A DNA stretch of 64,000 bases from Escherichia phage PJNS034. The stretch lies in sequence record PP391266.1; one strand, 5' to 3'. Shown one piece after another: positions 4,755-58,938 of this stretch; the first letter of the stretch is position 1, and each line of letters begins with the position of its first letter. Made by a program: the position numbers and the translations under genes. The notes under the pieces were generated by a model. It was not told where the DNA came from. It saw only the letters and a program-made list of their open reading frames with translations, and searched no databases.

Positions 4755-4756
4755 AT

Positions 4757-4833: not shown

Positions 4834-4836
4834 AAT

Positions 4837-4925: not shown

Positions 4926-4926
4926 A

Positions 4927-5002: not shown

Positions 5003-5004
5003 AT

Positions 5005-5079: not shown

Positions 5080-5095
5080 AACCTCTTTATCCGAT

Positions 5096-5167: not shown

Positions 5168-5174
5168 AATCCCT

Positions 5175-12271: not shown

Positions 12272-12308
12272 AAGCCCCAAGGGATTTCTCCCAAGGGGCT
12301 TTTCTTTT
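12272..12308. terminator. bidirectional terminator between convergent gene blocks
   Basis: Palindromic agcccc-aaggga-tttc-tccc-aa-ggggct with T-runs on both strands, exactly where plus- and minus-strand gene blocks meet. Confidence 0.55.
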
Positions 12309-22735: not shown

Positions 22736-22764
22736 TATTCACCTCAATGTTGTTGATAAATTAA

Positions 22765-40748: not shown

Positions 40749-41204
40749 TTAGTTACTTTCTGGAACAGCAACAGTCAGCTTAATACCAGCCAACTTGTCT
40801 GCAATCATCTTGTCCAGCTCTTCAGCAGTCAGTTCTTCATCATTCTTAATGTCCACTTCAACAGAAGCAGCTTTAGGATAGACGATATCGACCAGCTTCA
40901 TAGCAGCCATCAGACGCTCTTTAGGAGTAGCTGTGGGGCTTTCCATCACATCAATGAGGTATTCATCAGGGCGAATACGAGCGTTTGCTATAGCGTCTAA
41001 CATTTGCTGTGTGAGCTTGTTACGGGAGCCTTTCTTACGACCGCGACCAAAATTATTGCCGGGTAAGAAGGTGTTTTTGACAAGATTTCGACCTTTCGAG
41101 CAGGGATGGCCTTCTTCACTGAAAAATTCAATGGTTTTGCCTTTATACTCGTCTCCTACGCTGAGATGAGAGTAATCATCCACATAAGTCTTTTCATTAG
41201 ACAT
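40749..41204 (-). CDS. terminase small subunit (putative)
   Basis: First gene of the leftward block, directly upstream of the large subunit; basic GRGRKKGSRNKLTQ segment. Confidence 0.5.
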   Translation of the reverse strand: MSNEKTYVDDYSHLSVGDEYKGKTIEFFSEEGHPCSKGRNLVKNTFLPGNNFGRGRKKGSRNKLTQQMLDAIANARIRPDEYLIDVMESPTATPKERLMAAMKLVDIVYPKAASVEVDIKNDEELTAEELDKMIADKLAGIKLTVAVPESN

Positions 41205-42072
41205 TCATGCCACCTAATAATGGGGTTAGTTGAAAGATACACTGTAAGATGGAACCATTCATGCCAGTTCATCTACATGCCATGTCATAAGTATACACTG
41301 ATAAGAGGCTATCATGCCACCTCATACATGCCAGTCCATACTTCTGTGGGGATATAGGTAAGAGATGCTACATCTTACACTACTTATACCTATTATTTCC
41401 CTTCGGAATATAATGTTTAGGGTACAGGAAGAAGTGCCATATGACAAGACTTATTTACCAATTGAATTACAAATTCAGTGAATTTATAAGTGTGAGATAA
41501 CAAAGTGTGGATATTGCTCACTTTTTAACCAGAAACGTAAATTTCACTTGAGCGGTATGTGGCATATCAGCTTTAGCATAATGTTCAAAAAGGGGGAACG
41601 GGTTCCGCTCATGTTCCGGCGTGTGAATGAGGCGTGTAGACTACCACTAGCCCCTACCCTGAGTCAATACCCTCACTGGTCTGATGAGTGTGACTGCTCA
41701 AGTAGTAACCGTGTGATGCCGTGTGATGAGTACCCATCGTGCATAGTTATTCATGATAATTTATTTTTGGATAGCCTGAATAAATAATAGCCAGTGACCC
41801 GTTAGAATCTGCGTGCGTGTCTGATACTGCCTGAGTTATACCTCCATAACGCCAACGTTTAAACGGTGTATTGATAACGGGTAACAAGCCAGCGACAAGT
41901 GAATAAATATTCCAAGAGATAGCATATCTAATCAATCTATCTTCTCTTTATTCCTTTTACAGTGTAATTCTTATTTGTTTATAAGTAATAATTCTCCTCG
42001 ACCTATTGACAATTACCGTCGAGTAAATTACGCGTGTGTTTCATTACGTCTTAAAGAAATGATTTGTTTGTT

Positions 42073-42100
42073 TTGCTATTGACTTTTTAACTCATTCGTT
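42073..42100 (+). promoter_or_regulatory. sigma70-type promoter (TTGACT-16-TAATAT)
   Basis: Hexamers read directly from sequence. Confidence 0.5.
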
Positions 42101-42161
42101 TAATATAGCTCCCCGTTGAAACGCAGAACATCGCGGAGTAAACAAGTTAATCACTAAGTGG

Positions 42162-42190
42162 TTGACTGAATCGGGTTAGTATGTTTTAAT
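42162..42190 (+). promoter_or_regulatory. sigma70-type promoter (TTGACT-17-TTTAAT)
   Basis: Hexamers read directly; followed by AACGCTCTTTAA leader motif. Confidence 0.4.
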
Positions 42191-42371
42191 GCTTACCGAT
42201 TCAAACGCTCTTTAAAAATGTGGTCTGTCTTTAGGTGGTGTTTAACATCATTACTACAAGGCGCTTAGTTAGTTATCTGGTTTTGATTCCTGTTTCATTA
42301 GTGATTCAGGCGGATTGATAAAGCATCTTCAATAAGTCTTTAACAGTTCGATACTTCGAAGAAATTAACGA

Positions 42372-42399
42372 TTGACAGCGTACTAGATTCCTGTAAGAT
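42372..42399 (+). promoter_or_regulatory. sigma70-type promoter (TTGACA-16-TAAGAT)
   Basis: Consensus -35; followed by AACGCTCTTTAA leader motif. Confidence 0.5.
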
Positions 42400-42517
42400 A
42401 GACCACGTTTTAACGCTCTTTAACAATATGAATCATTAACGCTTAAACGTTAGTTTAATCAGACGTTATCAAGTGAAGCTGAAAAGTAACACGATAACAA
42501 ATGATGAAAATAAACGG

Positions 42518-42545
42518 TTGACAGCGTGAAATGATTCGGTATAAT
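42518..42545 (+). promoter_or_regulatory. strong sigma70-type promoter (TTGACA-16-TATAAT)
   Basis: Both hexamers perfect consensus. Confidence 0.65.
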
Positions 42546-43026
42546 GAGCGCCATCGAATGACAGAACGTTGTCAGACGATAGCCGGATAAGTGGATAACT
42601 TATAACGGCAGTTCGATAAAGTAGTGTGGTAGCGGGTAGCGGTATGTAACACGGATAATCTACGGATTAACGGCTTATTTGTTGCTTGCTTAAAGCATAA
42701 AACGTCGGGCGGCACGATGGGAGAAGTGCATAAAATCAATTAGGCTCCCTGACTCTTTAACAATTAGGAAACTACGCACCACAATTAACGTTGGATAACG
42801 TAAAGAGTGGGTTAATTTAGGGTGATTCCCTGCGTAGGCTTGTCGAGCTGATAACAGCGGTATGTGATGGACGCTTATATACTCCCTCCATGATAGTGTA
42901 TGACTGATTCCACCTAGGCCAAAGTGAAAGGGCGATAACGAATAGCAAGTAACAATCTCGTTTGATATGGGCATTTAATAGTGAGTGTCCAGATTAAACG
43001 ATAAAACTGAATTGAGGATTAAACCT

Positions 43027-43608
43027 ATGTCTATCTTAATTGCTGACCTGATTCGTAACGCTGACGGTGTTAACTCTCTGGCTGACTCTATCCAGTCCGA
43101 AGGTAAAAAGCTGGATAACATGATTCATCTGGCGCTGGCTTCTGCTACTGTTCTGGTGCATGAGCATGGCGATGTTACCGTGTTAAACCGTGTCATTAAC
43201 AAGCTGTCTTCTGGTGTCCGTACCAATGCGGCTCGTGCTTTCGCTGAAACTTTCGCTCCGGTAACTTTCGATAAGAAAGCAAAAGAGTTCCGCTTCAACA
43301 AACACAAACGCAATGAAGCATTCATTGACAGTGAAGCGGCGAAAGAAATGTGTGAAACTGTCTGGACTAAATTCCGTCCTGAGCCTGAGTATAAGCCAAT
43401 GAATCTGGCTGACTCTTTCACTAAGCTGATTGACCGTGCCGCTAACGATATGGATAAGAACGACACCATTTCCGAAGCACAAATCGCTCTGCTGCGCTCT
43501 TTCCAAGAGCAATTGGTAACACTCCAGACCAAAGAAGCGGCTGAACGTGATGCGGCAAAGGCACAAGCTGCAATCGCTGACGCTCCGGCTGAGGAAGTAG
43601 CGGCATAA
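43027..43608 (+). CDS. first early protein (193 aa), function unknown
   Basis: First ORF downstream of the promoter cluster; ATG 43027 with GAGG upstream (ORF track starts at GTG 42985); followed by a hairpin. Confidence 0.5.
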   Translation: MSILIADLIRNADGVNSLADSIQSEGKKLDNMIHLALASATVLVHEHGDVTVLNRVINKLSSGVRTNAARAFAETFAPVTFDKKAKEFRFNKHKRNEAFIDSEAAKEMCETVWTKFRPEPEYKPMNLADSFTKLIDRAANDMDKNDTISEAQIALLRSFQEQLVTLQTKEAAERDAAKAQAAIADAPAEEVAA

Positions 43609-43632
43609 GATAGGCGATAGTCTATAAACATC

Positions 43633-43670
43633 TAGCCCCTTGCATTGAATAAATGTGAGGGGCTTTTTGT
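43633..43670 (+). terminator. terminator-like hairpin after first early gene
   Basis: agcccct...aggggct stem with large loop, then tttttgttt. Confidence 0.4.
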
Positions 43671-46077: not shown

Positions 46078-46336
46078 TAACATGGCTAAGATTGCAACTG
46101 TGTGGTTTAACAAAACTGGTACTAACACTGTGTACCTCAAGCTGAATGGTAAGCTGCACAAGACTGAGGTGACTATCCCTCGTACTCACCTTATCAGCGG
46201 TCACATGCTAAATGATGCTGTTAAGAAGAAGCTGGTCGAAGAAGCGATTCGTGCTGACCTCGGCTGTGGCGTAGTTATCGCTGACAACCTCAAGAACTAT
46301 CAACACAATGGGGTACGCTTCCAGTATGGAAAATAA
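46040..46336 (+). CDS. hypothetical protein (start probably at internal Met, MAKIATVW)
   Basis: ORF-track ORF. Confidence 0.3.
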   Translation: MKQLTKRLNKRINNMAKIATVWFNKTGTNTVYLKLNGKLHKTEVTIPRTHLISGHMLNDAVKKKLVEEAIRADLGCGVVIADNLKNYQHNGVRFQYGK

Positions 46337-46754
46337 AATGAAGCGTGTGCTTAACCTGTCTGCCGATAAGGTGAACGGGTATGTGTTTAAAGATAGCCCG
46401 TCTATCTACTGGTCATGGTGGCATGTATTGCTCACCGTGGCCTTTGTTGTATTGGTGGTGTTCGCTTTGTGTGCTCCATTCAGTAAGGCACACGCTGCAT
46501 CATTCCCTGCTGGTGAGCATTTACAATGCCGCATTGAATTAGAAAGTGTTGGTGGTGGTCGTAAGCTGACGTTTAAATCTTACGATGATTCACACATCAA
46601 ACTTGCTAATAGTAATACTCTGGTGCTTCGCGGTGATGCTCAAGTGCCTGAGTCAACTGTTAACCTGAACAATGGTGAGTTGTTCGCAACAAGGGGTAGC
46701 TGGACTTATCGCGGCCTCTGTAAAAACGTAGATAATATCAGGATAAACCCATGA
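46308..46754 (+). CDS. membrane-anchored protein (148 aa)
   Basis: One hydrophobic helix followed by soluble domain. Confidence 0.35.
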   Translation: MGYASSMENKMKRVLNLSADKVNGYVFKDSPSIYWSWWHVLLTVAFVVLVVFALCAPFSKAHAASFPAGEHLQCRIELESVGGGRKLTFKSYDDSHIKLANSNTLVLRGDAQVPESTVNLNNGELFATRGSWTYRGLCKNVDNIRINP

Positions 46755-47074
46755 AAAAGATTTTTACTACTGTGACGATTCTGGCTGGCCTGTTTGCTTC
46801 ATCGGCTAACGCCTTTGTTTGCACTGGTACTGCTACCCATAAAGACGGTGGCACGGCTGACATTATCGTTAACACCAACGATATGGTGTTTGATGATGCT
46901 GTCGGTCTGTATCGTGCTGAAACTCAGTGGCATCCTAAGCTGGCCTCTACGCTGTATGTAGACCAGTCTGAAAAGACAATCGAAGGTGTTGGCTTCCGTG
47001 GCATGTACACCGCCGTAGCAGTCGATAGCAAAGACGTTATCATGATTGCTGACGACCTTGTTTGCTATGAGTAA
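46751..47074 (+). CDS. secreted protein with signal peptide (107 aa)
   Basis: N-terminal MKKIFTTVTILAGLFASSANA signal-like sequence. Confidence 0.4.
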   Translation: MKKIFTTVTILAGLFASSANAFVCTGTATHKDGGTADIIVNTNDMVFDDAVGLYRAETQWHPKLASTLYVDQSEKTIEGVGFRGMYTAVAVDSKDVIMIADDLVCYE

Positions 47075-47459
47075 ACTTGAGTGGGCTTGGTATATCTTTG
47101 CAATTACTGCCATAGTTGCATGGGGTGTATGGCTCAATAGTCTGCTGTAAGCTGCCTAATGCCTGCCTCATTGGTGGGCATTGTGAAGCATACCGCTTCA
47201 AACAACATTCTCATTAATTCCCTTTAGGGACTATCGCTATGTCTGAATGGCAATCCGATAGCCAACTTGGAACCTGTCCGTGAGTTGAAAAGAATCCTCT
47301 ATATGAGGGGTTTTGGGATAAGTAACGCAATATGGTAATCAACCTCAGGGGTGGGGTTGGTTATCTAAGTGTGTTTACGGAAATCATTGGTCATTGAGCT
47401 AAAGTACCAGTGGTAACTGATAAGCATACTTAGACAACCAACTAAATAAGGAATCCCCA

Positions 47460-47738
47460 ATGAAAAGAATTGCAATGCTGTTAAGTGCTGTAATGCTGAC
47501 TGGCTGTGTATCACTGACTGAGCAGACTGATAAAGAGTTGTGCTTTGGTTATGGTCGTGCTGAGTCAGAAGCGATGCGTGATGCTATCTTGCAAGAGATG
47601 CAAGAGCGTCAGGATGCTGGTATGTTCCCGATTGCTATCGAGGAATGTAAGAAGCAAGTGTTTCGTGGTATTCAATCACGGAATGAATCAAACCTTCTAT
47701 CTGCGAGCATGATTGGTGCTCGTTACCAACAACAATAA
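47460..47738 (+). CDS. lipoprotein (92 aa)
   Basis: Lipobox-like MKRIAMLLSAVMLTGC. Confidence 0.45.
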   Translation: MKRIAMLLSAVMLTGCVSLTEQTDKELCFGYGRAESEAMRDAILQEMQERQDAGMFPIAIEECKKQVFRGIQSRNESNLLSASMIGARYQQQ

Positions 47739-48198
47739 GGATGTAACAATGTCTCAAGTTCTGAATGATGTAAACCGCAGCTTTGGTTATGAGTTCTACG
47801 AAGAATCAAAAGCTCTGTCTGGTGTTCAAGGCTATCTGGCTGACCAGCCTAAGTTTCGTGTGTTCCTCAAGCTGCGTCGTCGCATGATTGAAGGTGAACT
47901 GCGTCAACTGAAAGTGATGCTGAAAACTGCCTCTGGTCTGGATGCTGCCGCTATCTACAAGCTGCGCTCTGCACTGAAAGATGATTTGCGTCGTATCGGT
48001 CAGCAACTGAAAGACCTGCGACTGCATACGCTGGGTGCTAAGAAAGCAGAAGCACAGCGTTACCTGAACGTAATGGCAATGCACGACCAGTGTGAGAAGG
48101 TCGGTGTTGATGGTACAAAACTCCTGAATGAAGTACATGCTGAAATTCAGGCTCGTAAGGCTTTGGATAATGAGTCTCGCAAACTGGTTTCTGAATAA
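47713..48198 (+). CDS. hypothetical protein (161 aa)
   Basis: ORF-track ORF. Confidence 0.3.
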   Translation: MVLVTNNNKDVTMSQVLNDVNRSFGYEFYEESKALSGVQGYLADQPKFRVFLKLRRRMIEGELRQLKVMLKTASGLDAAAIYKLRSALKDDLRRIGQQLKDLRLHTLGAKKAEAQRYLNVMAMHDQCEKVGVDGTKLLNEVHAEIQARKALDNESRKLVSE

Positions 48199-49070: not shown

Positions 49071-49520
49071 ATGAGTGTTGCAGCAACAGCAGCATTTCTG
49101 TGTATGACGTTAGTTATTCACGAAGAAGCACGAGGCGAGCCTATCGCTGTGAAATACGAGGTAGGCCACGTGGTGAAGAATCGGATGGATTCACGCCAGT
49201 ATCCAGATACATGCGAGGCGGTTGTACTGCAACCCAAACAGTTCTCGTGGACAAAAACAAAAGGTGTACAAGATGAGTACGATTTGCGACAACGTTATTA
49301 TCGCGTCCTTGACTCGCTCGACACTCCCCAAAAGCGACTTTCGTTTGCTGCTTCTCAAAGAGCGGCAGATGAAGTGCTCAGTGGTAAGCATAAATCTCGA
49401 ATCGGAGCTGCGCTCCACTTCGTTACTCGCGGTCACTCAACTCATTGGGCGTCCAAATTTAAACGCCATACTATAGCAGGTATGGATTTCCTACTCCCAA
49501 GGAAGAAGAAAAATGCTTAA
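49071..49520 (+). CDS. SleB-like cell-wall hydrolase (endolysin candidate)
   Basis: HEEARGEP matches the conserved EARGE segment of the SleB/Hydrolase_2 family as recalled. Confidence 0.55.
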   Translation: MSVAATAAFLCMTLVIHEEARGEPIAVKYEVGHVVKNRMDSRQYPDTCEAVVLQPKQFSWTKTKGVQDEYDLRQRYYRVLDSLDTPQKRLSFAASQRAADEVLSGKHKSRIGAALHFVTRGHSTHWASKFKRHTIAGMDFLLPRKKKNA

Positions 49521-49716
49521 ATGGCTGTTCCGTCAGGGAAAAGACCTGAACTCTATTCTGGCTCCGCTTCGTAAGATGAAGCTGGAACTGGAAGAACGCC
49601 TCCACAAGAATGCTGATGATATTGTGGAAGCACAAAAGACCATCACCGAAAAGACCAAAGAAAATGGTTCTATTGGTGAAGCCCTGCAAACTGACCTGTT
49701 CAAATCTATCAAGTGA
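49513..49716 (+). CDS. hypothetical protein (67 aa)
   Basis: ORF-track ORF overlapping neighbours at both ends. Confidence 0.3.
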   Translation: MLKWLFRQGKDLNSILAPLRKMKLELEERLHKNADDIVEAQKTITEKTKENGSIGEALQTDLFKSIK

Positions 49717-50645
49717 GACAAACGACTATGATTCGCACCCCATTCGGTAACTTCTCTGGTAAGACTATCGGTATCACTGCTGGCGTGATTGTGTTCCTCT
49801 TCATCCTGCTGCTGTTGAAGCCGTTCAAAGTTATCTCTGACACCGAGGAGGGTGTGCAGAAGTCGTGGTCAGGCCAGATTTACAGTCAACCAATGACTGC
49901 TGGCTTCCACTGGATGAACCCGTTCAACAGCGTCACAACGTTCCCAATGACGTATAAGAACGTTCAACTGACAAATATCGGCGTTCCTGCTCAGGACGGT
50001 TTCAAAACCACGATGGATATCAGCGTAACTGGTAAATTTATTCCGGGCATGACCCCTGCTGTCCTGAAGTCTACCGGTAATTCTGAACAGTTTGCAGCAG
50101 TGCATATCTCTAAACGTATCACAGCTAAGCTGATTGATGCTGGTAAGAAGCACGCTGTAATCAGTCAGAACTTCTACGATGAAAGCACTCTGAACAAAGT
50201 TCGTGAAGAAATCATCGTAACGGCTAACCAAGAGCTTGAGCCTCTGGGTTGGAAAGTGACTGCGGTTGAAATCAGCAACATCGACCTGCCGGACGTTATC
50301 AAGAACGCTATCAGCGAGTCCAAGGTTCGTGCTGAACAGGTTAAGCGTCAGAAAGAATCCTTAGCAATTGCTGCTCTGAAAGCACAAGAGATTGAGAAAG
50401 TTGCAGAGTCTAACTCTAAAGCAACTATCCTCGATGCTGATGCTAACGAGTACAAAGCTAAGAAAGAAGCTGATGCTAAAGTGTATGCTGCTGCTCAGGA
50501 AGCAAAAGGTAACAAAGAAGTTGCTGCCTCTGTAACTCCTGCTCTGGTTGAATACATGAATGCTCAAGCTAAGATGAAGTGGGATGGTCAGATGCCAACA
50601 ACGAATGTTGGTTCTAACACTCCTGTCATCATGAGCATGAAGTAA
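49713..50645 (+). CDS. SPFH/band-7 (stomatin/prohibitin-like) membrane protein
   Basis: N-terminal hydrophobic anchor, then band-7-like core and Ala/Lys/Glu-rich coiled-coil tail. Confidence 0.55.
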   Translation: MRQTTMIRTPFGNFSGKTIGITAGVIVFLFILLLLKPFKVISDTEEGVQKSWSGQIYSQPMTAGFHWMNPFNSVTTFPMTYKNVQLTNIGVPAQDGFKTTMDISVTGKFIPGMTPAVLKSTGNSEQFAAVHISKRITAKLIDAGKKHAVISQNFYDESTLNKVREEIIVTANQELEPLGWKVTAVEISNIDLPDVIKNAISESKVRAEQVKRQKESLAIAALKAQEIEKVAESNSKATILDADANEYKAKKEADAKVYAAAQEAKGNKEVAASVTPALVEYMNAQAKMKWDGQMPTTNVGSNTPVIMSMK

Positions 50646-50706: not shown

Positions 50707-50844
50707 ATGTTTGAATTTATCGGTGATTGTATTGCAACAACACTCAAGGCTGGATTGGGTGTGGTATTCATTGTGCTTATCTGGGTTGGCTTCCAGATGG
50801 CATGGAACTGGACGCTTGACCGTATTCGCTGGGGATTCAAATGA
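50707..50844 (+). CDS. small membrane protein (45 aa), holin-like size
   Basis: Read by eye: MFEFIGDCIATTLKAGLGVVFIVLIWVGFQMAWNW; preceded by conserved leader. Confidence 0.3.
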   Translation: MFEFIGDCIATTLKAGLGVVFIVLIWVGFQMAWNWTLDRIRWGFK

Positions 50845-51015: not shown

Positions 51016-52413
51016 ATGCCAATCGTAACTATCGTAACTAACCGTAATAACTCTGAAACTAAGCGTGTTGAAGCTCAGTCAGGCGGTTGCTTCGGCTTTA
51101 TGGCATCAACCTCTTTCTTCCGTGACCATCGCCGCGATGTTGAGTACGTTGGTTATCATATGGAGTCATCCAATCAGGCTAAGCATTGTAGCGAAGTCTT
51201 TGATGGTAAGAATAAGTTATTCCCGTATCACAAATTCATGACCAACAATGAGTTCCATGCTATGTTCGGTGAGAACTTTGTGGATACTCGCCACGGTACT
51301 GTTAGTCACCACGGTTATGTGGTTGTTGAAATGCAGCCAGAAGGTTTTGAAGGTGTTGGTATTCCACAGGACATGTTCATCTCTGGTCTGTTCACTGCTC
51401 GTCAGTTGAGCTATGGCCTGTATCCGAACATGCGTGACACCATTAAGAAAGGTGTTCACCCAATGATGGCTTACGTTATCAGTGAGCTGATTCAGTGGGA
51501 AGATACAAGCACTGCTCTTGCTGCACAGCTTCGCTGGAAACGTCAGCGTGTTAGTTCTTCCAACATCGACAGCACAGCGTTCGGTAAGAAGAACCTGATT
51601 AACATGTTCAACTGCCTGAAAGGTAAGAAGCATGTGCCTTACTTCGGTCACGAAGGTGGCATCATTCAGCGTGGTGGTTACAAGCGTGACCATAACTTCA
51701 ACACCTCTGCTGATAATCGTCCGGGTATTTATCAGACAATCACGGCGAACATGAACACTTCATCTGCACCGATTGAAGCTGATGAACCAATCATCAACCC
51801 GTTCCACTTCTCTCCAGCTTACCTCGGTCATGTACTGAATGAACTGCTGGGTTGTGAAGTATTTGATATGTCGAAGATGCTTGACCGTCAGGGTATGAAA
51901 GTTAACCCAAAATCTTCGGTGTACAAGTTCTACCAGATGCGTGATGTGAAGTTCCGTAAGTCATATCGAAAAGGTGATATGGTTGAAGTTCGTGCTGATA
52001 TGTTCGGTGCTGACCAGTACATCAACCGTCACAACACTCCGCTGAGCAATCTGGTTTCTTATCGTCATGGTGAGAACAACACCACTAACCGTGTTGGTTT
52101 CGTACCGGTTAAGACTCATGTTGAGAAGGTCAGCGTGAAGAACGGTGTGGAAAGCGTTAAGCTGGAAAACGGTTGCTGGGTATCTCCACGTTACATCAAA
52201 ACTGCTGGTACTCATGCGGTTGAAGGTGTGAAGATTCAGGCAGGTACTGACACTCCGGTAAATGCACTGTATACAGTTCGTAATTCAAAAGAAGTGTATG
52301 CTGCACGTACCTTTGACTTGTTCGAAGCATCTGTTCGACTGATTCAGGTTACTGGTAACAGTATCGGTCAAGAGATTATCAAGCGTCCACGTGACCTGAT
52401 TCCAGCGCTCTAA
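51016..52413 (+). CDS. hypothetical protein (465 aa), first large gene of the ligase cluster
   Basis: Long ORF with no motif I can assign; contiguous with the amide-ligase genes. Confidence 0.5.
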   Translation: MPIVTIVTNRNNSETKRVEAQSGGCFGFMASTSFFRDHRRDVEYVGYHMESSNQAKHCSEVFDGKNKLFPYHKFMTNNEFHAMFGENFVDTRHGTVSHHGYVVVEMQPEGFEGVGIPQDMFISGLFTARQLSYGLYPNMRDTIKKGVHPMMAYVISELIQWEDTSTALAAQLRWKRQRVSSSNIDSTAFGKKNLINMFNCLKGKKHVPYFGHEGGIIQRGGYKRDHNFNTSADNRPGIYQTITANMNTSSAPIEADEPIINPFHFSPAYLGHVLNELLGCEVFDMSKMLDRQGMKVNPKSSVYKFYQMRDVKFRKSYRKGDMVEVRADMFGADQYINRHNTPLSNLVSYRHGENNTTNRVGFVPVKTHVEKVSVKNGVESVKLENGCWVSPRYIKTAGTHAVEGVKIQAGTDTPVNALYTVRNSKEVYAARTFDLFEASVRLIQVTGNSIGQEIIKRPRDLIPAL

Positions 52414-52567
52414 TGGGTATTAATAAGACCATGACTACAGCGTTCTTTATCCTCGCTGTAGCATCGCCAATACTTGCCTGTTTCAATACAACAGCAGCAG
52501 CATTTAGTGCTGGCATGGCTGTCTTCGCAATGCTTTGTTATGTTGTAGCGAACGGTTGATATACTCA

Positions 52568-52645: not shown

Positions 52646-53455
52646 ATGACGATTCGCCTGATTACTCTTGGTGCTGACCCTGAAACTATTGTTGCTCGCA
52701 ACGGTGTTCCAACTCACGCTATTGGTCTTATCGGCGGTACTAAGGAAGAACCACGTAAGATTATCCGTGGTGGTCGTGAAGTTGGTGCGGTGCAGGAAGA
52801 TAATGTCCTGTATGAGTTCAACATCATGCCACACGATACTCGTCAGGGATTCATTGACAACATTCAGCAGATGTTGGAAGTGGGTCGTGAGATTCTGGGT
52901 GATGGTTACGAAATCACTAATAAGACTTCTCACATCTTCTCTGATGAAGACATGGCTCATTTCCCTGACTCAGCGTTTATCTTCGGTTGTGAACCGGATT
53001 TCTTCGCTGGTAATGGTGAGATGAATCCGAAGCCTGCTGCACCGTGGCCGGGTCTGCGTACCGCAGGTGGTCATGTTCACTTCGGGTTCGATGAGCGTGT
53101 AGTTCGTGATGATGAGAATGTTCGTTCTCTGATTCAACTGTGCGATATGTATATGGCGTTGCCGTCAATGCTTCTGGACACTGACGACCTGCGTAAAGAA
53201 CTGTATGGTAAGGCCGGTGCATTCCGTCCGAAAGCATATGGTGCTGAATATCGTACACTGTCAGGTTTCTGGATTCATAATCCTGAAAATACTGGCTTCG
53301 TGTTTGACCAAGCGCAGAAAGCGTATGATGCGTTGGCAACTGGTCTGGGTCGTGAGATGTTGGCACGTTTCCCATACGAACTGGTTGTCGATATCATCAA
53401 CAGCAATGACCGTGGACGTGCTGAACGTGCCCTGAAAGTTATGCAGGTTGCATAA
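52646..53455 (+). CDS. amidoligase-like protein, divergent (269 aa)
   Basis: GADPETIV and TAGGHVHFGF parallel the GLELELE and STHVHLD segments of the downstream amidoligase-like ORF; preceded by conserved leader. Confidence 0.4.
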   Translation: MTIRLITLGADPETIVARNGVPTHAIGLIGGTKEEPRKIIRGGREVGAVQEDNVLYEFNIMPHDTRQGFIDNIQQMLEVGREILGDGYEITNKTSHIFSDEDMAHFPDSAFIFGCEPDFFAGNGEMNPKPAAPWPGLRTAGGHVHFGFDERVVRDDENVRSLIQLCDMYMALPSMLLDTDDLRKELYGKAGAFRPKAYGAEYRTLSGFWIHNPENTGFVFDQAQKAYDALATGLGREMLARFPYELVVDIINSNDRGRAERALKVMQVA

Positions 53456-53637
53456 TGGAAGAAGGTCTGCTGATTAGCTGGGTTGAATCTCCAGCGAACC
53501 GTAAGACCAAGACTCATACCCTCTTCTTCGAAAGCCTGGACGAGGGTTATGAGTTCATGGCCTCTAAAAGTTGTGTAATTCAAGTACAACGCATTCCACT
53601 GGTGAGAAAGAATGGCGAAACTGGTAACGGTAAATAA
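53455..53637 (+). CDS. hypothetical protein (60 aa)
   Basis: ORF-track ORF, start overlaps previous stop. Confidence 0.25.
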   Translation: MEEGLLISWVESPANRKTKTHTLFFESLDEGYEFMASKSCVIQVQRIPLVRKNGETGNGK

Positions 53638-53803
53638 CGCAGATAAAACTGTAACTCGTCGTGTCTTTATGGACAACGAAGAGGGTATCATGTGGGCAGT
53701 TGACCAAGCCCGCACAGCACTGTCAGTCGTGACTGATGATGTGGAAGTGGTCGAGGCTTCCAGCCGTAAAGGTTGGGAAGGTCATATCGCATGTGATTGC
53801 TAA
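53612..53803 (+). CDS. hypothetical protein (63 aa)
   Basis: ORF-track ORF. Confidence 0.25.
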   Translation: MAKLVTVNNADKTVTRRVFMDNEEGIMWAVDQARTALSVVTDDVEVVEASSRKGWEGHIACDC

Positions 53804-53827
53804 TTTAAACTGAACGAGAGAACTAAA

Positions 53828-54436
53828 ATGTCAATCAATATGTCAAGTGGTGATTTACGTCTGTATTGGGGTGGGTGTTATGCACCTGTTGCATGGGATG
53901 CAGCAGATAGTGGCGTAGCAACACTGGTAATTCACGACGTTCGTGTGATAAATCCAATGTCACGTGACTACACCGAAGCACGAGTTCAAGGTGAACTATT
54001 CTTCATTCGTAATGGAGAAGAGGCTCGTGGTAATTTTGAAGGTCGTATGTCTGACCTCCTCGGTGATGGGTTCACCACTCCTCAACGCAATATCGGTTAT
54101 ATCCGTGTTCACGGTCAACCGTATTGGATTACCTTCAAACGTCGTCGTACAAATCGTAAAGGCATCACCAATGACCGTCTGGCTGTGTATGTAGCTGGGC
54201 ATCGTGGTGAAGCAGGTTTGAACTTCGGTAGTGATGTGTTGTGTCGTCTGTATGCAACCTTTGATGGTCGTATCTCTGATGATTTCTGTATTCATCAGAA
54301 CATGATTCATTATAAAGGTGTGGTTGTCGGACGTTATGAGCGTCACAATCGTATTGTATTAGCTGAACGTTTTGCGTATCTTAGCTGGTCGCTGGAACGT
54401 ATCGGTGGTTACGACGTAACGGTGGAGGTTGAGTAA
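53828..54436 (+). CDS. hypothetical protein (202 aa) inside ligase cluster
   Basis: Preceded by conserved TTAAACTGAACGAG leader; stop overlaps amidoligase start. Confidence 0.4.
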   Translation: MSINMSSGDLRLYWGGCYAPVAWDAADSGVATLVIHDVRVINPMSRDYTEARVQGELFFIRNGEEARGNFEGRMSDLLGDGFTTPQRNIGYIRVHGQPYWITFKRRRTNRKGITNDRLAVYVAGHRGEAGLNFGSDVLCRLYATFDGRISDDFCIHQNMIHYKGVVVGRYERHNRIVLAERFAYLSWSLERIGGYDVTVEVE

Positions 54437-55260
54437 TGATTATTGCTGACATTTTAGGGCATGGTCGTGGGTCGGATGTTGTTGATACGCATCCGTTGAT
54501 TGTTGGTCGAGGCCGTGTAGGACTCGAATTAGAACTGGAGAATATGCCAAATGCTCGACAAGCTGCTGGTTGGACAGTTACTGGTGACGGTTCTCTGCGT
54601 AATAGCGGCGTGGAATATGTACTCCGTGGTGCTCAGGGAGGTATGGAGTTATTTAATTCGATACTTTCTCTGGAAGAAGCACTCATGGCACATCAATGTG
54701 ATGCTAACCTTCGCTGCTCTACTCACGTTCACCTTGATATACGTCGGCTCACTGTGGCTCAACTCAAGCGTTTACTTCTGGCTTATACAGTCTTTGAGCC
54801 ATTAATCTTTGAGTTGTCCGGTGCGCATCGTCGTACTAACAACTTCTGTCCGTCGTTTAGTTTCGCTCAGCAACAAATTCGTAAGCTGAGTAACAACTGG
54901 CATCATGATGGTGAACGATTCCTTGCTCGTATTGTGGAAGGTCGTGACCGCCAATCCAGTGATAAGTATTCAGCACTGAATCTGGTTCCAATCTTCACTC
55001 AGGGTTCTGTAGAGTTCCGTGGTGCAGAAGCGAAGCCAAGTGCAGGTAAGATGATTCGTCTGGCTAACCGTATTCTAAGTCTGTATGACTTAGCGGTTAA
55101 CTCTGATATGAATCAGTCTGATGCTGAGTTCATTAACTCACTGGCGAACCTTGATGTTCAACAGGCATTGATGGGTACGATTCCTCGTGACTTCGAACTC
55201 AGCGAAGAACTGGTGAATGAAGGACGTGTCTTAGCGTTCGATATTATCTCTCTGGGGTGA
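54436..55260 (+). CDS. amidoligase (Amidoligase_2 / carboxylate-amine ligase-like) protein
   Basis: VGLELELE...DGSLRNSGVEYV...STHVHLD resembles the putative amidoligase family (glutamine-synthetase-like fold) as recalled. Confidence 0.5.
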   Translation: MIIADILGHGRGSDVVDTHPLIVGRGRVGLELELENMPNARQAAGWTVTGDGSLRNSGVEYVLRGAQGGMELFNSILSLEEALMAHQCDANLRCSTHVHLDIRRLTVAQLKRLLLAYTVFEPLIFELSGAHRRTNNFCPSFSFAQQQIRKLSNNWHHDGERFLARIVEGRDRQSSDKYSALNLVPIFTQGSVEFRGAEAKPSAGKMIRLANRILSLYDLAVNSDMNQSDAEFINSLANLDVQQALMGTIPRDFELSEELVNEGRVLAFDIISLG

Positions 55261-55261
55261 C

Positions 55262-55477
55262 ATGAGCTGGAACGAACGAGAGTATCGTAAACCAAAGTTG
55301 GGCACTGTATGTGTCCACTTCGAACCTTCGTATAAGTCAACCTTTGGAAGTACGAAGAAGTTCCCTAACGCATCGTTCTACTTGAGTACGAACGGTGTAA
55401 TCATCATCCGTGATATGGATGGTGACAACATCTGTGCATACCCTGAAGGTGTGTGGCTGAATGTTGAAATGAAGTGA
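55262..55477 (+). CDS. hypothetical protein (71 aa)
   Basis: ORF-track ORF; followed by a clean terminator hairpin. Confidence 0.3.
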   Translation: MSWNEREYRKPKLGTVCVHFEPSYKSTFGSTKKFPNASFYLSTNGVIIIRDMDGDNICAYPEGVWLNVEMK

Positions 55478-55485
55478 TTAACTCA

Positions 55486-55508
55486 AGCCCTTCTTCGGGA
55501 GGGTTTTA
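55486..55508 (+). terminator. Rho-independent terminator (cassette copy 3)
   Basis: 8-bp stem agcccttc/ggagggtt with ttcg loop, then tttta; preceded by AACTCAAG. Confidence 0.55.
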
Positions 55509-55563
55509 TGGTAATCATTACCACAAACTATTGAAACTAACTATTGAACTTGAGGAAAGTATT

Positions 55564-57156
55564 ATGTGCGGAATCGTTGGAATTATGCGTGGCGTTATGA
55601 CTGAAGGTATGGTGGACATGTTTGAACAACTGCTGTATGCAGATGTGTTCCGTGGCCCGCACTCCACTGGCGTCTATCGTGTTAATAAAGATGGTCAATC
55701 AGGGTTGTATAAGGATGCAGTACCTGCGTCTTTATATCTTGGCTCGAAAGGCTGGGATGATTTACGTGGGAATCTGAATGGAACTGCTGGTCATCAGGCA
55801 CTGTCTCAAGTTTATGTTGGTCATAACCGTTGGGCAACTGTAGGTGCAGTTAACGCTGTGAACTCACATCCATTCAAGTGCGGTAACATCACGATGGTAC
55901 ACAATGGTACTGTTGCGAAGTGGCGTTTGAATGACCACCTGAAGTATGACGTTGATAGTCATGCGGTGTGTGCGATGTTGGATTCACATGGTCTGGCTGA
56001 AACTCTGAAAGTTCTGGATGGTAAGTTTACTCTGGTGTGGCATGACGCATCTGATAACACCATGAACTTTATCCGTAATGCAGAACGTCCTCTGCACATG
56101 GTTGAGTTCACTGATGGTGGTTGGGCGTTTGCATCAGAAGGTGAGATGTTAACGTGGATTAATGGTCGTCGTAAGACCCCGTTTGGTATTAAACGTGCTT
56201 TCGAACTGCCAGTTGGCTTCCATCATAAATTCCAGTTATCCGCGAGCAAAGTAGAGCTTGCGGAGGTCGTTAAGTACGAACTCCCAAAGTTCACCAGCTA
56301 CGCCAGCAACAGCACGTATTATCCAAACCGAAGCTCAGTCGCAAGCAGCAGCGCAAGCTCAACAAACTCAGAAAGCGCAACCGCTAGACGTGTGCGTCTG
56401 ATGAAAGAGTGGGGCATTGACGTTGGAGACCGCAAAGATGTAGAGAACATGATTGTGTCTCTGGATAACATCGCGTTCACAGCGTACTCAACCAATGCAG
56501 CATCAGGTCGTATTGATGCAGACGCATGGGGTTACGATGAAGCTGTTGATGCCTGTGATGCTGGTCATATGGAAATTGACTGTAAGCGTGGTGGTAAAAC
56601 TGAAGATGTTCAGGTAACAGTTTACGGTGTTGATACTGTTAAGTGGAAAGACAACTACTCTCAGGGCGACCGTCTGTACGGTAAGATTGACAGTGTGTTT
56701 GAATCCACTGAGCATGGCAAGACTCGTCTTCGTATCACTTTGAAACCACTGACTCTGTGTACTGAGTTGGCTGATGGCGTTGAAGCCTTTAATGAGAAAG
56801 TGTTCCCGCTCCTCATTAAGAAAGAGGCCGAAAAGGTTGATGCCGACAAAAGTAAATCAGATGTTGCAGGAAGCACTGGAAGCGCAGGAACTGCAACTGG
56901 TCAGGGAACTCAGTTATCGGTTGTAGTGGATAACACTGCAAAAAAGCCGGAAGGTACGGACTCATCAAGCGGCTCGCCGAACTTGTTCAACATGTCCGCA
57001 ATTCCAATGAGTCTTAAAGACTTGCGTGAAGACAAGCTGAGTTGTGCTTGGTGCGGAAATGCAATCCACGAACATAACTACGAAATGTCTGATATGTTCT
57101 TTAAATCTCACATCTGCCCAGATTGTGCCAAGGAGTTACCGGGTTATGGCGACTGA
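55564..57156 (+). CDS. class II (Ntn-type) glutamine amidotransferase-like protein with C-terminal zinc ribbon
   Basis: Begins MCGIVGI (Cys directly after Met, hallmark of N-terminal nucleophile amidotransferases); Ser-rich linker; C-terminal CAWCG...CPDC; start moved to internal ATG with GAGG upstream. Confidence 0.7.
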   Translation: MCGIVGIMRGVMTEGMVDMFEQLLYADVFRGPHSTGVYRVNKDGQSGLYKDAVPASLYLGSKGWDDLRGNLNGTAGHQALSQVYVGHNRWATVGAVNAVNSHPFKCGNITMVHNGTVAKWRLNDHLKYDVDSHAVCAMLDSHGLAETLKVLDGKFTLVWHDASDNTMNFIRNAERPLHMVEFTDGGWAFASEGEMLTWINGRRKTPFGIKRAFELPVGFHHKFQLSASKVELAEVVKYELPKFTSYASNSTYYPNRSSVASSSASSTNSESATARRVRLMKEWGIDVGDRKDVENMIVSLDNIAFTAYSTNAASGRIDADAWGYDEAVDACDAGHMEIDCKRGGKTEDVQVTVYGVDTVKWKDNYSQGDRLYGKIDSVFESTEHGKTRLRITLKPLTLCTELADGVEAFNEKVFPLLIKKEAEKVDADKSKSDVAGSTGSAGTATGQGTQLSVVVDNTAKKPEGTDSSSGSPNLFNMSAIPMSLKDLREDKLSCAWCGNAIHEHNYEMSDMFFKSHICPDCAKELPGYGD

Positions 57157-57439
57157 TAAAATTGTAATTCGTATGCCGAAAGACGACATTGAATGTGAGC
57201 GGAAATATCCGTTCACTTACTTCATGAATGCAGCGCTGCGTGGTATGCAGCGTCGCTACTCTGAACAAGCGTCGGCAAAGTTTGGTAGTGAAGTTGAGAT
57301 TCTATTCCCAACTGCATTATCAAAAATGATTCATGACCACATGGTCACTCTGTATCAACAGGAAGGATTCGAACTCGCTGAAGAAGATTTCGAAGACTCC
57401 GAACAATACCGCAAATATCTGAAACTAATTAAGGGCTAA
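57146..57439 (+). CDS. hypothetical protein (97 aa)
   Basis: ATG overlapping the amidotransferase stop; ORF-track frame. Confidence 0.35.
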   Translation: MATDKIVIRMPKDDIECERKYPFTYFMNAALRGMQRRYSEQASAKFGSEVEILFPTALSKMIHDHMVTLYQQEGFELAEEDFEDSEQYRKYLKLIKG

Positions 57440-57444
57440 AACAA

Positions 57445-58938
57445 ATGCTGCGTATCTTCAACTACAACAACGGTTCTCAAGGTCTGGGTGCTCTGCGTGA
57501 ACATGTAGAGCCATTGATTCGTGAGATGAATACTCATCGTGGTTTCCGTAACATTCGTCCGGTTATGGGTAGCGAGAATGGTTCTGCTCGTCTGTTTCAG
57601 GCGACTAACCGCTTCATTATGAACTGGGGTTCTTCGCAACCCCTGAACACTGATGAAAGCAACTTCGTTCTCAACAAACCGGAAGCTGTTGGTTTAGCAA
57701 CTCATAAACTCCGCTTCTTCCAACATGTTCACCAGTGGAACCAAGAGAAGATTGCTCAGGGTGTGAATGGCCTGACTGTTCCGATTCCTGAGTGGACAAC
57801 TTCTCGTGATGAAGCTCAGACTTGGGCAGGGCATGACCATCTGGTTTATGCCCGTCAACGTCTGCAAGGTCATAGCGGTGAAGGTATCGAAGTATACGGT
57901 ATCAATCAGGTTGTTGAACGTGCTCCACTGTACACCAAAGGCATCATCGGTGCTCGTCGTGAGTATCGTGTTCATGTCATTGCTGGTCAGGTGGCACTGG
58001 TTCAGTTGAAGAAACGCCGCAATGGTGGTGAGGCTGTGGGCAATGGTAATGACCATGTTCGTAACCTCGGCTCTGGTTGGGTGTATGCAGTAAGTGATGC
58101 TCGTCCATCACCAGTCGTATTGAGTGCAGCACAGAATGCAGTTCGTGCTCTGGGTCTGGACTTTGGTGCGGTAGACATTATCGCTAAAGGTCGTAAAGGT
58201 CAGGAGCGTGAGTGCTGGGTGTTGGAAGTTAACACTGCACCGGGTCAGCGTGGTGATACTACTGTGACGCTGTATGCTCGTGCTGTTGCATCGGCATATG
58301 CAATCTGGATGAATCGTGATAGCGTTGACGTCCGTGATTTAGGAGGTGTCAAAGCTGCATGGGAAACACTTCCTTGGCTGAACGATGAAACCTTCCTTGC
58401 TCTGATGCGTGATGAAGGTGCAGATGGTTCGGTACTTCTGCGTTCTCAGCGTGAAACTCAGGCAGCAGAGGCAGAAATGCCTAACACTGACGATGATGTG
58501 GCGGCAGATGAAAACTTTGCCCTTCCTGCTGATGAACTGACACCTGCTCGTGCAACCTCTGGTGCTCATGTAGTTCACACTGGTACTCGTTGGGTTGATG
58601 TAGAAGCAGCACCTCAAGTTCGTGCTGAGCCTGTACGTCGTCGTGACGGTGAGCCAATGCCGTTCAATGGTAATCCATTCGATGCACGTATTCGTCGTGA
58701 ACCTGCACCACGTCCTGCACCTGAACCGGTTGTAATGCCAGAACGTCGTGTCATGTTGTCTCGTCTGGGACAGAATGACCCACAGAACGAACAGTTCGTG
58801 GTATTCACATGGAACGGTCGTCGTGAAGTCGGTGTAGTCAATACTCGTCTGGGTGTTGTTTACATGGCTGGTAGCGAAGTTCAACTTCCACTGGCTCAGG
58901 TTGATTTGATTGCGGTAGTTGATACCGAAATTCGTTAA
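57445..58938 (+). CDS. ATP-grasp ligase (RimK-like) with ~200-aa C-terminal extension
   Basis: YRVHVIAG and GLDFGAVDII...VLEVNTAPG match the RimK/GshB-type ATP-grasp C-terminal motifs as recalled; C-terminal half Pro/Arg-rich, unassigned. Confidence 0.7.
   Translation: MLRIFNYNNGSQGLGALREHVEPLIREMNTHRGFRNIRPVMGSENGSARLFQATNRFIMNWGSSQPLNTDESNFVLNKPEAVGLATHKLRFFQHVHQWNQEKIAQGVNGLTVPIPEWTTSRDEAQTWAGHDHLVYARQRLQGHSGEGIEVYGINQVVERAPLYTKGIIGARREYRVHVIAGQVALVQLKKRRNGGEAVGNGNDHVRNLGSGWVYAVSDARPSPVVLSAAQNAVRALGLDFGAVDIIAKGRKGQERECWVLEVNTAPGQRGDTTVTLYARAVASAYAIWMNRDSVDVRDLGGVKAAWETLPWLNDETFLALMRDEGADGSVLLRSQRETQAAEAEMPNTDDDVAADENFALPADELTPARATSGAHVVHTGTRWVDVEAAPQVRAEPVRRRDGEPMPFNGNPFDARIRREPAPRPAPEPVVMPERRVMLSRLGQNDPQNEQFVVFTWNGRREVGVVNTRLGVVYMAGSEVQLPLAQVDLIAVVDTEIR

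What the first reader, a model, noticed from the sequence alone, without database searches (positions are those of the whole stretch)
46308..47738. Run of envelope-targeted early proteins
Three consecutive early genes encode a membrane-anchored protein, a signal-peptide protein and a lipobox lipoprotein. Early expression of envelope proteins is typical of superinfection exclusion or receptor masking; the lipoprotein could alternatively be a spanin component, but it is not proline-rich and sits far from the other lysis candidates.
Basis: inference. Interest (0 to 1): 0.35.

Follow-up and report, generated by a model that had tools for sequence, protein, structure and literature searches.

The report
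Exported phage protein cassette plus RNA
This stretch of a coliphage genome encodes four small proteins that are sent to the bacterial envelope, plus a folded RNA that matches no Rfam family; they probably tamper with the cell surface, for example to keep other phages out, but nothing links them to any protein of known function.

Summary
The window is Escherichia phage PJNS034, a 65.7-kb podovirus distantly related to phiEco32/SU10-type phages.

**The three ORFs are real.** Related phage genomes (nine loci) keep gene order, export signals and a cysteine pair in each exported domain.

**The description needs correcting:**
- B and C are not adjacent. A conserved 27-aa single-helix membrane ORF (47067-47150) and a ~300-nt structured RNA (47148-47451) lie between them.
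- The RNA has 67 base pairs, 20 with compensatory changes, and no Rfam match.
- A may be cleaved after a conserved A-x-A site rather than anchored.
- "Early" rests on position only.
- A SleB-type cell-wall hydrolase lies 1.3 kb downstream.

**No known function.** A, B and C match no Pfam, PHROG, NCBIfam, PADLOC or PDB entry beyond signal peptides.

**Accessory and fast-evolving.** A's periplasmic domain comes in three types that reassort independently of B, C and D. C is missing in one relative.

**C fails the spanin tests:** 1 proline in 77 residues, predicted helical, no adjacent inner-membrane spanin partner.

**Verdict.** This is an accessory envelope-interaction cassette. Superinfection exclusion or receptor masking is the best guess (confidence ~0.4) and is untested. 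The RNA is the most novel item.

The parts
46326..46754 (+). Gene A (142 aa from 46326; the longest ORF starts at 46308 and the GenBank record uses 46338). It has a conserved 33-aa basic cytoplasmic tail, a hydrophobic helix, an A-H-A|A site, and an ~85-aa periplasmic beta domain with 2 invariant Cys.
   Evidence: AlphaFold gives pLDDT 76-88 for residues 61-130, with seven strands. The N-tail is under purifying selection. The periplasmic domain has three reassorting allele types.
46751..47074 (+). Gene B (107 aa). It has a Sec-type signal peptide (cleavage predicted after A21) and an 86-aa acidic mature protein with invariant Cys24 and Cys105. Its ATG overlaps A's stop codon (ATGA).
   Evidence: There are two allele classes, 78-98% identical within a class and 19-27% between classes.
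47067..47150 (+). 27-aa single-helix membrane micro-ORF (MSKLEWAWYIFAITAIVAWGVWLNSLL). Its ATG lies 8 nt before B's stop.
   Evidence: Present in all close relatives, with an invariant ...WG(I/V)WLNSLL end and 5-8 synonymous codon changes. In L007 it starts with GTG.
47148..47451 (+). Conserved structured RNA element. The 5' domain (47148-47262) has helices H1-H5. A variable middle follows. The 3' domain (47335-47443) has H6, the long hairpin H7/H8, and an alternative pairing of 47355-47364 with 47434-47443.
   Evidence: The + strand folds at MFE -106.7 kcal/mol, z = -5.25; the - strand gives z = -1.40. Of 67 pairs, 98.2% of cells are paired and 20 pairs have compensatory changes, against 9.4 +/- 1.7 in shuffles and 3-6 when partners are slid. 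One copy per genome. No Rfam family. Coordinates.
47460..47738 (+). Gene C (92 aa). Lipoprotein precursor with lipobox LTG|C and Val at +2, so outer-membrane sorting is expected. The 77-aa mature protein has invariant Cys28 and Cys63 and three predicted helices.
   Evidence: It is absent from L010/L012, where the RNA element is followed directly by the D homologue.

Best explanation
**Shown.** The interval holds a conserved accessory module of a small podovirus clade (PJNS034/TacPo2-like).
- A, B and a 27-aa membrane peptide are joined by overlapping stop and start codons.
- A ~300-nt structured RNA follows on the sense strand, then an outer-membrane lipoprotein gene, C.
- All four proteins carry export or membrane signals.
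- The three larger ones each have a conserved Cys pair in the exported part.
- None has a detectable relative of known function.

**Inferred.** The products sit in the periplasm, inner membrane and inner face of the outer membrane of the infected cell. There they act as small binders or blockers of envelope components, not as enzymes. The most likely specific role is superinfection exclusion or receptor masking: C on an outer-membrane protein from the periplasmic side, as T5 Llp and Rtp45 do, and A and B on something that varies between hosts or competing phages. The RNA is most likely a cis-acting leader or processing element that sets expression of whatever gene follows it (C, or D where C is missing).
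For: **Real genes.**
- Gene order and signals are conserved in up to nine related loci.
- Synonymous changes far outnumber non-synonymous ones in A's tail, and synonymous changes are common in the 27-aa ORF.

**Export.**
- C's lipobox is the only one in the genome.
- B has a classic n-h-c signal.
- A has a helix plus a conserved A-x-A site, and distant homologues carry a plain Sec signal.
- Each exported domain has two invariant Cys.

**Accessory or arms-race behaviour.**
- A's periplasmic domain is 43-48% identical where neighbouring genes are 84-99%.
- Its three allele types cut across the two B/C/D lineages. For example, L003 against TacPo2 is 85% in A's periplasmic domain but 26% in B and 36% in D.
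- C is present or absent among relatives.

**Clade-restricted.**
- An exhaustive HMMER search of 1.84 billion representatives with mature C found two true clusters.
- There is no match in E. coli genomes or plasmids.

**Small, no catalytic motifs, no family hits**.

**Precedent.** Small periplasmic-face lipoproteins Llp and Rtp45 block receptor use (PMC12685063).

**RNA.**
Against: - There is no sequence or fold similarity to any known exclusion protein. The Cor PHROG hit (E = 5e-4) covers only residues 1-31, which is the signal peptide. Foldseek against the PDB gave best E = 0.9 for C and 0.16 for A.
- C is not adjacent to a tail-fibre or receptor-binding gene, unlike llp in T5.
- Expression timing is unknown, and a strong terminator lies upstream.
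- The structure models are of moderate confidence (pLDDT 71 and 63).
- Clustering of exported proteins may be partly coincidental, because this phage has many small membrane ORFs.
- The lytic-phage context gives no lysogen to protect, although T5, Rtp and T4 show that lytic phages do this too.
Confidence: 0.4

Rival explanations
1. Lysis function. C is the outer-membrane spanin, with A or another membrane protein as the inner-membrane partner, fusing the membranes at the end of infection.
For: C is the only lipobox ORF in the genome, so no other canonical o-spanin candidate exists. A has the N-in/C-out topology of an i-spanin. A SleB-like hydrolase and several small TM ORFs lie 1.3-3 kb downstream. 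There is a weak PHROG Rz-like hit (E = 0.0098).
Against: - The Rz-like hit covers only signal-peptide residues 4-22.
- Mature C has 1 Pro in 77 residues and three predicted helices.
- No TM-plus-coiled-coil gene is adjacent, overlapping or embedded. Downstream gene D had no segment above the hydrophobicity threshold.
- A's periplasmic domain is a beta sandwich, not a coiled coil.
- A's alleles reassort independently of C's, which is unexpected for a co-evolving spanin pair.
- C is absent in L010/L012.
Confidence: 0.07
2. Envelope management for the phage's own cycle. The periplasmic proteins regulate or sense something during infection, such as lysis timing or lysis inhibition (as with T4 RI), or they restrain the phage's own cell-wall hydrolase or a host periplasmic machine. 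They do not exclude other phages.
For: The cassette sits in the same + strand block as a Hydrolase_2 enzyme, an SPFH/Band_7 membrane protein and several small TM ORFs. A's cytoplasmic tail is strongly conserved, which suggests signalling or an interaction on the cytoplasmic side.
Against: A housekeeping partner such as the phage's own hydrolase (85-94% conserved) would not explain three divergent, reassorting alleles of A's periplasmic domain, nor the loss of C. There is no similarity to RI, RIII or known lysozyme inhibitors.
Confidence: 0.2
3. The grouping is incidental. The proteins are unrelated small accessory genes. The only element under strong constraint is the RNA, which acts on its own, for example as an RNase III/E processing site, a stabiliser of the upstream mRNA, or a small RNA.
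For: - The RNA 5' domain is 77-89% identical across all ten genomes. This includes L006, whose A-like and C-like proteins are only 29-36% identical.
- In L006 the element sits between different genes.
- In L010/L012 it precedes D, not C.
- The long H7/H8 hairpin, up to ~35 bp with the alternative extension, resembles an RNase III substrate.
Against: A, B and the 27-aa ORF are joined by overlapping stops and starts in the close relatives, which argues for co-expression. A-like and C-like genes still co-occur in the distant L006. This reading does not conflict with an envelope role for the proteins.
Confidence: 0.25
4. Counter-defence or competition. The exported proteins neutralise a host envelope-associated defence, or a competitor's periplasm-acting toxin or lysin, in the manner of immunity proteins.
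For: The products are small, disulfide-bonded, fast-evolving periplasmic proteins with lineage-independent alleles. One non-significant Foldseek hit of C is to the Tai4 immunity protein (E = 5.7).
Against: No significant match to any immunity or anti-defence family. No cognate effector is evident.
Confidence: 0.1

Closest known systems
T5 Llp, Rtp45 and Cor: small outer-membrane lipoproteins that exclude superinfecting phage by binding the periplasmic face of the receptor (FhuA, LptDE)
   Same: C is a small lipoprotein precursor (77-aa mature form) with a canonical lipobox and no inner-membrane retention residue. It is encoded by a lytic phage outside the structural genes, and it is dispensable in at least one relative. 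Precedent from PMC12685063 and PMC9586334.
   Different: No sequence similarity beyond the signal peptide. It is predicted helical, and no fold match was found in the PDB search. It is not adjacent to a receptor-binding gene. No functional data exist.
T4 Imm (inner membrane) plus Sp/spackle (periplasmic inhibitor of the incoming tail lysozyme)
   Same: This is a set of small membrane and periplasmic proteins made by a lytic phage. This phage also injects a virion protein with a lysozyme domain (12307-17139), which such a protein could target.
   Different: No homology or fold match. Comparison with T4 Imm/Sp rests on my own knowledge of those proteins, not on a test here.
Lambda Rz/Rz1-type two-component spanins
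   Same: There is an outer-membrane lipoprotein (C) and an N-in/C-out membrane protein (A) in the same genome, and no other lipobox ORF.
   Different: The genes are not adjacent or embedded. C is proline-poor and helical. A's periplasmic domain is beta-rich. The alleles reassort independently. C is missing in a relative.
Intercistronic structured RNAs of lytic phages (T7 RNase III processing hairpins) and cis-regulatory leaders with alternative pairings
   Same: It is a sense-strand, intergenic, multi-hairpin element with a long imperfect hairpin just upstream of a ribosome-binding site. One segment (GGUUGGUUAU) has two mutually exclusive conserved partners.
   Different: It is much larger (~300 nt, at least 8 helices). 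The 5' domain is almost invariant in sequence. There is a single copy per genome and no Rfam match. No ligand, protein partner or processing has been shown.
Extended signal peptide regions (ESPR) of autotransporters
   Same: A carries a conserved ~33-aa extension N-terminal to an otherwise signal-peptide-like h- and c-region.
   Different: No Pfam ESPR hit. The h-region is 19 or more residues, which is anchor-like. The comparison comes from my own knowledge only.

Membership tests
Llp/Cor/Rtp45-type exclusion lipoproteins | Lipoprotein signal peptide with lipobox and outer-membrane sorting (no Asp at +2) | tested here: met
   MKRIAMLLSAVMLTG|CVS. The pattern L-(T/A/S)-G-C followed by V or I is conserved in the seven homologues. 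It is the only lipobox ORF in the window.
Llp/Cor/Rtp45-type exclusion lipoproteins | Sequence or profile similarity of the mature protein to Cor, Llp or Rtp45 | tested here: not met
   PHROG 1119 (Cor) gives E = 5.3e-4, but only residues 1-31 align, which is the signal peptide. Pfam, NCBIfam and PADLOC give nothing. A PDB sequence profile search gives E of 0.24 or worse. An exhaustive HMMER search finds only clade members.
Llp/Cor/Rtp45-type exclusion lipoproteins | Fold similar to the solved exclusion lipoproteins | tested here: inconclusive
   Foldseek against the PDB gives best E = 0.9, and no Llp or Rtp45 chain is among the 50 listed hits. The model is only pLDDT 62.7, from a 2-sequence alignment.
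Llp/Cor/Rtp45-type exclusion lipoproteins | Gene placed next to the receptor-binding protein gene (true of T5 llp; from my own knowledge) | tested here: not met
   Tail-fibre-like genes lie at 20213-25647 and 31464-32282 on the opposite strand, more than 15 kb away.
Llp/Cor/Rtp45-type exclusion lipoproteins | Blocks adsorption or infection when expressed | not testable with these tools
   Needs plating and adsorption assays.
Two-component spanin (Rz/Rz1) | o-spanin gene embedded in, overlapping or adjacent to an i-spanin gene (N-terminal TM plus periplasmic coiled coil) | tested here: not met
   Upstream are the RNA element and a 27-aa ORF. Downstream gene D (47749-48198) had no segment above the hydrophobicity threshold.
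Two-component spanin (Rz/Rz1) | Mature o-spanin is proline-rich with little secondary structure | tested here: not met
   1 Pro in 77 residues. Three helices are predicted at residues 20-32, 37-52 and 60-85.
Two-component spanin (Rz/Rz1) | Retained in all close relatives | tested here: not met
   C is absent from L010/L012, while flanking genes are present.
Unimolecular spanin (T1 gp11 type) | N-terminal lipobox plus C-terminal transmembrane helix | tested here: not met
   C has no hydrophobic segment after the signal peptide.
T4 Imm/Sp exclusion pair | Homology or fold similarity of A, B or the 27-aa peptide to Imm or Sp | tested here: not met
   No PHROG or Pfam hit. No PDB sequence hit. Foldseek of A against the PDB gives best E = 0.16. 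B was not modelled.
Sec / signal peptidase I substrates (B, possibly A) | Basic n-region, hydrophobic h-region, small residues at -3 and -1 | tested here: met
   B has MKK / IFTTVTILAGLFASS / A-N-A. A has A-H-A, A-Q-A, S-K-A or S-T-A at the same site in all ten aligned homologues. This is by rule and conservation only; no SignalP or LipoP run was possible.
Any Rfam RNA family | Covariance-model score at or above the gathering threshold | tested here: not met
   At gathering thresholds the whole window gives only tRNAs. In E-value mode on 46900-47600 there are only sub-threshold miRNA-type hairpin hits, the best at 23.1 bits against a gathering score of 58.

The most novel reading that the evidence does not exclude
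The ~300-nt element is a new class of phage riboregulator. Its almost invariant 5' domain (H1-H5) would be a recognition module for a protein or ligand. Its 3' domain would toggle between H6 and an extended H7 hairpin, because the same GGUUGGUUAU segment has two conserved partners. That toggle would gate translation or processing of whatever variable envelope gene is plugged in behind it. The cassette as a whole would then be a swappable exclusion-specificity locus whose A-domain alleles are traded between phage lineages.
Probability: 0.15. Interest if true: 0.6.

Novelty: new variant of a known kind. Interest (0 to 1): 0.4.

Why it matters
- **If the proteins block reinfection or mask a receptor**, they would add unrelated protein families to the few exclusion factors of lytic coliphages studied so far. 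They would also point to the envelope component this broad-host-range biocontrol phage depends on. That bears on phage cocktail design, because co-applied phages could be excluded.
- **The allele shuffling of A's periplasmic domain** offers a natural series for mapping specificity.
- **The structured RNA** is a well-supported, undescribed motif. Its 5' domain is conserved as well as or better than the adjacent protein-coding genes. It has a candidate two-state 3' domain that can be tested directly with reporters and probing.
- **If all of this turns out negative**, the region is one more block of small phage genes with no known relatives.

Tried and rejected
**Protein searches**
- Pfam, PHROG, NCBIfam and PADLOC scans of A, B, C, the 27-aa ORF and neighbours gave only signal-peptide-level or sub-threshold hits.
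- PDB sequence-profile searches gave nothing with E below 0.04.
- A profile-profile test of A against B, to see whether they are paralogues, gave probability 0.5%.
- tblastn of A, B, C and D against the whole window found no paralogues, and none resembles the tail proteins.

**Structure searches**
- Foldseek of the A and C models against the PDB found nothing significant.
- Against BFVD, the A model's best hit was an unnamed 128-aa viral protein (E = 2.9e-4, TM about 0.4), which is uninformative.

**Exhaustive search**
- The HMMER search with mature C gave two true clusters plus a spurious repeat-protein hit.

**Looking for more relatives**
- The search for related loci with A in IMG/VR found none.
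- Two RNA-motif patterns scanned across viral, metagenome and genome contigs gave no hits. Three calls were lost to a pattern syntax error.
- blastn or tblastn against phages found only TacPo2. E. coli genomes and plasmids gave nothing.

**RNA follow-up**
- Complementarity of the RNA to the rest of the genome did not exceed chance.
- A short peptide-coding reading of the conserved AUG inside H4/H5 (MSxWQSDS...) is disfavoured. There are no synonymous changes in ten sequences, the one amino-acid change is matched by a compensatory change across the stem, and the peptide lengths differ between genomes.
- No sigma-70 promoter or intrinsic terminator was found inside 47.0-47.5 kb.
Full report
**Identity and context**

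The window matches proteins of Escherichia phage PJNS034 (65,715 bp) at 100% identity. The only relative in the GenBank phage collection is Pantoea phage TacPo2, where every gene is annotated as hypothetical. Its portal is about 41% identical to those of phiEco32/Kuravirus-like podoviruses.

The genome has two blocks:
- A - strand structural block at 12.3-41.2 kb holds the terminase, an SU10-type portal, scaffold, capsid, tail proteins and a 1610-aa virion protein ending in a lysozyme domain.
- A + strand block runs from about 43 kb through the window end to 12.2 kb. It holds a DksA-type zinc finger, the cassette studied here, a SleB-type hydrolase, an SPFH protein, an amidoligase/GATase cluster, primase-helicase, a split DNA polymerase, ten tRNAs, a deoxyribosyltransferase and PnuC.

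Consensus sigma-70 promoters lie at 42079, 42372 and 42518. A 13-bp-stem terminator lies at 43634-43664, between the promoters and the cassette. "Early" is therefore a positional inference.

**The observation**

The three ORFs are present.
- **A** has a single strong hydrophobic helix.
- **B** has a textbook Sec signal peptide.
- **C** has the lipobox L-T-G-C with Val at +2. A lipobox scan of every ORF start in six frames finds C as the only credible case on a coding strand. Ten shuffles of the window gave 0-2. A relaxed pattern adds nothing convincing.

Relatives came from TacPo2 and from Logan assemblies found through homologues (L003-L013). They keep the same order: A, B, a gap, C, D. Alignments show invariant signal features and exactly two invariant Cys in each exported domain. 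In A's first 34 codons there are 13 synonymous against 2-3 non-synonymous codon differences to the two TacPo2-type loci, L001 and L007. These are real, selected genes.

1. A 27-aa single-helix ORF (47067-47150) starts 8 nt before B's stop. It is kept in all close relatives, with an invariant ...WG(I/V)WLNSLL end and 5-8 synonymous changes. A's stop and B's start also overlap (ATGA), so A, B and the 27-aa ORF look translationally coupled.
2. The 310-nt "gap" before C is not empty. It is as conserved as the adjacent coding genes or more so: 85.6% nucleotide identity to TacPo2 in the 5' domain, against 55-71% for those genes.

**The RNA element**

- On the + strand it folds at -106.7 kcal/mol (z = -5.25). 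The - strand gives z = -1.40.
- RNAalifold on ten sequences predicts 69 pairs.
- Counting 67 of them gives 98.2% paired cells and 20 pairs with compensatory changes. Shuffles give 9.4 +/- 1.7 (0 of 500 reach 20), and sliding the partners gives 3-6.
- Many G-U pairs fit only the + strand.
- There is one copy per genome.
- There is no Rfam match.
- No copy was found in IMG/VR, JGI metagenomes, GTDB genomes, E. coli genomes or other GenBank phages.
- The 5' domain (helices H1-H5, 47148-47262) survives at 77% identity even in the distant L006, including a compensatory U-A to C-G change in H4.
- In the 3' domain, the segment 47355-47364 (GGUUGGUUAU) can pair either with 47335-47343, forming the base of H6, or with 47434-47443, extending the long H7/H8 hairpin to within about 7 nt of C's Shine-Dalgarno sequence. 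The second pairing holds in 8 of 9 distinct sequences, with one compensatory change. This suggests a two-state element, but it is not proof.

**The proteins**

None of A, B, C or the 27-aa ORF matches Pfam, PHROG, NCBIfam or PADLOC beyond signal peptides. PDB sequences give nothing either.

- **Family size.** A's family has ten members in 5.8 billion proteins. The two distant members (114 aa) carry an ordinary Sec signal peptide in place of A's long N-terminus. Mature C finds only two true clusters in 1.84 billion representatives.
- **Structure of A.** AlphaFold models A's periplasmic part as a seven-strand beta domain with pLDDT 76-88. There is no PDB match, and the best BFVD match is an unnamed viral protein.
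- **Structure of C.** C is modelled as three helices at pLDDT 62.7, with no PDB match.
- **Paralogy.** A and B are not detectable paralogues. None resembles any other protein of the phage.

**Evolutionary behaviour**

Among genomes whose flanking genes are 84-99% identical to the window, A's periplasmic domain is only 43-48% identical, while its N-terminal 58 residues are 76-91%.

Pairwise matrices show three A-domain types:
- the window alone;
- L003, TacPo2 and L007;
- L004, L005, L009 and L010.

These types cut across the two clear lineages defined by B, C and D. The A domain is therefore exchanged between lineages independently of its neighbours. This is typical of specificity determinants under diversifying selection. 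It also argues against A and C being a co-evolving pair.

C is absent from L010/L012. There the RNA element runs straight into the D homologue. These are two assemblies from runs with adjacent accession numbers, probably one phage. C is therefore dispensable.

**Mechanism**

The best-supported reading is an accessory module whose products act as small binders in the periplasm and at the outer membrane. Superinfection exclusion or receptor masking is the most likely specific role. Lytic phages T5 and Rtp do this with small lipoproteins that bind FhuA or LptDE from the periplasmic side. That step is inference only. The tested membership features for Llp/Cor (mature-protein similarity, adjacency to the receptor-binding gene) are not met, and the fold test is inconclusive.

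The spanin reading fails on four tested features: adjacency, proline content, secondary structure and conservation. It keeps one point in its favour, since no other lipobox ORF exists in the genome.

A role in the phage's own lysis control, an immunity-like role, or an RNA that works independently of the proteins all remain possible.

**Verdict**

The proteins belong to new families within a familiar kind of phage accessory gene. The structured RNA inside the interval is the most novel and most directly testable feature.

Noticed in passing
window 47148-47451 (+): A ~300-nt conserved structured RNA lies between the 27-aa ORF and gene C. It has 8 helices, 20 covarying pairs and no Rfam family. 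The 5' domain is conserved even in the distant L006. A candidate alternative pairing joins 47355-64 with 47434-43.
   Followed up: yes
window 47067-47150 (+): A conserved 27-aa single-TM micro-ORF overlaps B's stop codon. It was not mentioned in the finding, and the gene calls held for the Logan loci do not list it.
   Followed up: yes
window 49071-50645 (+): A Hydrolase_2/SleB-like cell-wall hydrolase (E = 3e-16) is followed by a 67-aa ORF and an SPFH/Band_7 protein with an N-terminal TM. Relatives call the hydrolase from a later Met (138 aa), so the hydrophobic-looking N-terminus may not be translated. This is a possible endolysin only 1.3 kb from gene C.
   Followed up: partly
window 50707-50844 and 52413-52559 (+); 28347-28595 (-): These are small membrane ORFs that could be holin-type proteins: 45 aa with 1 TM, and 48 aa with 2 hydrophobic segments, the first ending in a lipobox-like I-L-A-C. 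An 82-aa TM-plus-coiled-coil ORF inside the tail module hits a virion-protein PHROG (E = 4e-8) and, weakly, an Rz-like PHROG (E = 0.008). No clear lysis cassette was identified.
   Followed up: partly
window 41204-43664: A ~1.8-kb stretch with no long ORF sits between the divergent blocks. It has three sigma-70-like promoters, one a perfect TTGACA-16-TATAAT at 42518. One gene follows (42985-43608, PHROG 1448, unknown function). A 13-bp-stem terminator lies at 43634-43664, only 18 nt before the next gene, so downstream genes need read-through or antitermination.
   Followed up: no
window 52646-58938 (+): A cluster of COOH-NH2 ligase, amidoligase, class-II glutamine amidotransferase and an ATP-grasp-like (RimK-type) gene. 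This is a peptide or metabolite-modification module of the kind seen in several phage groups.
   Followed up: no
window 10451-11751 (+): A nucleoside 2-deoxyribosyltransferase is followed by a PnuC-like nicotinamide riboside transporter (TIGR01528, E = 1.7e-20), a six-helix membrane protein at the end of the + strand block.
   Followed up: no
window 4423-5251 (+): A block of ten tRNA genes (Pro, Tyr, Lys, Ser x2, Ile, Asn, Met, Trp, Gln). TacPo2 has eleven, with a partly different set.
   Followed up: no
window 62974-63609 and 761-2446 (+): The DNA polymerase I-type enzyme is split into an exonuclease ORF and a polymerase ORF. They are separated by the window boundary and by several small ORFs.
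   Followed up: no
L006 2364-2717, 3415-3759, 4141-4268, 5395-5691: A more distant phage contig (Logan ERR11479828) keeps an A-like protein with a plain signal peptide, the RNA 5' domain and a C-like lipoprotein (SLTG|C). They are interleaved with other genes. It also has a further 117-aa exported protein with a lipobox-like LTSC.
   Followed up: partly
window 46326-46424 (A residues 1-33): The cytoplasmic N-terminal tail of A (MxxKVKRVLNLSADKVxGYVFKDSPSIYWSWWH) is far more conserved than the exported domain, and it is absent from the distant homologues. If A is cleaved, this tail plus the helix would remain as a separate conserved membrane peptide.
   Followed up: partly
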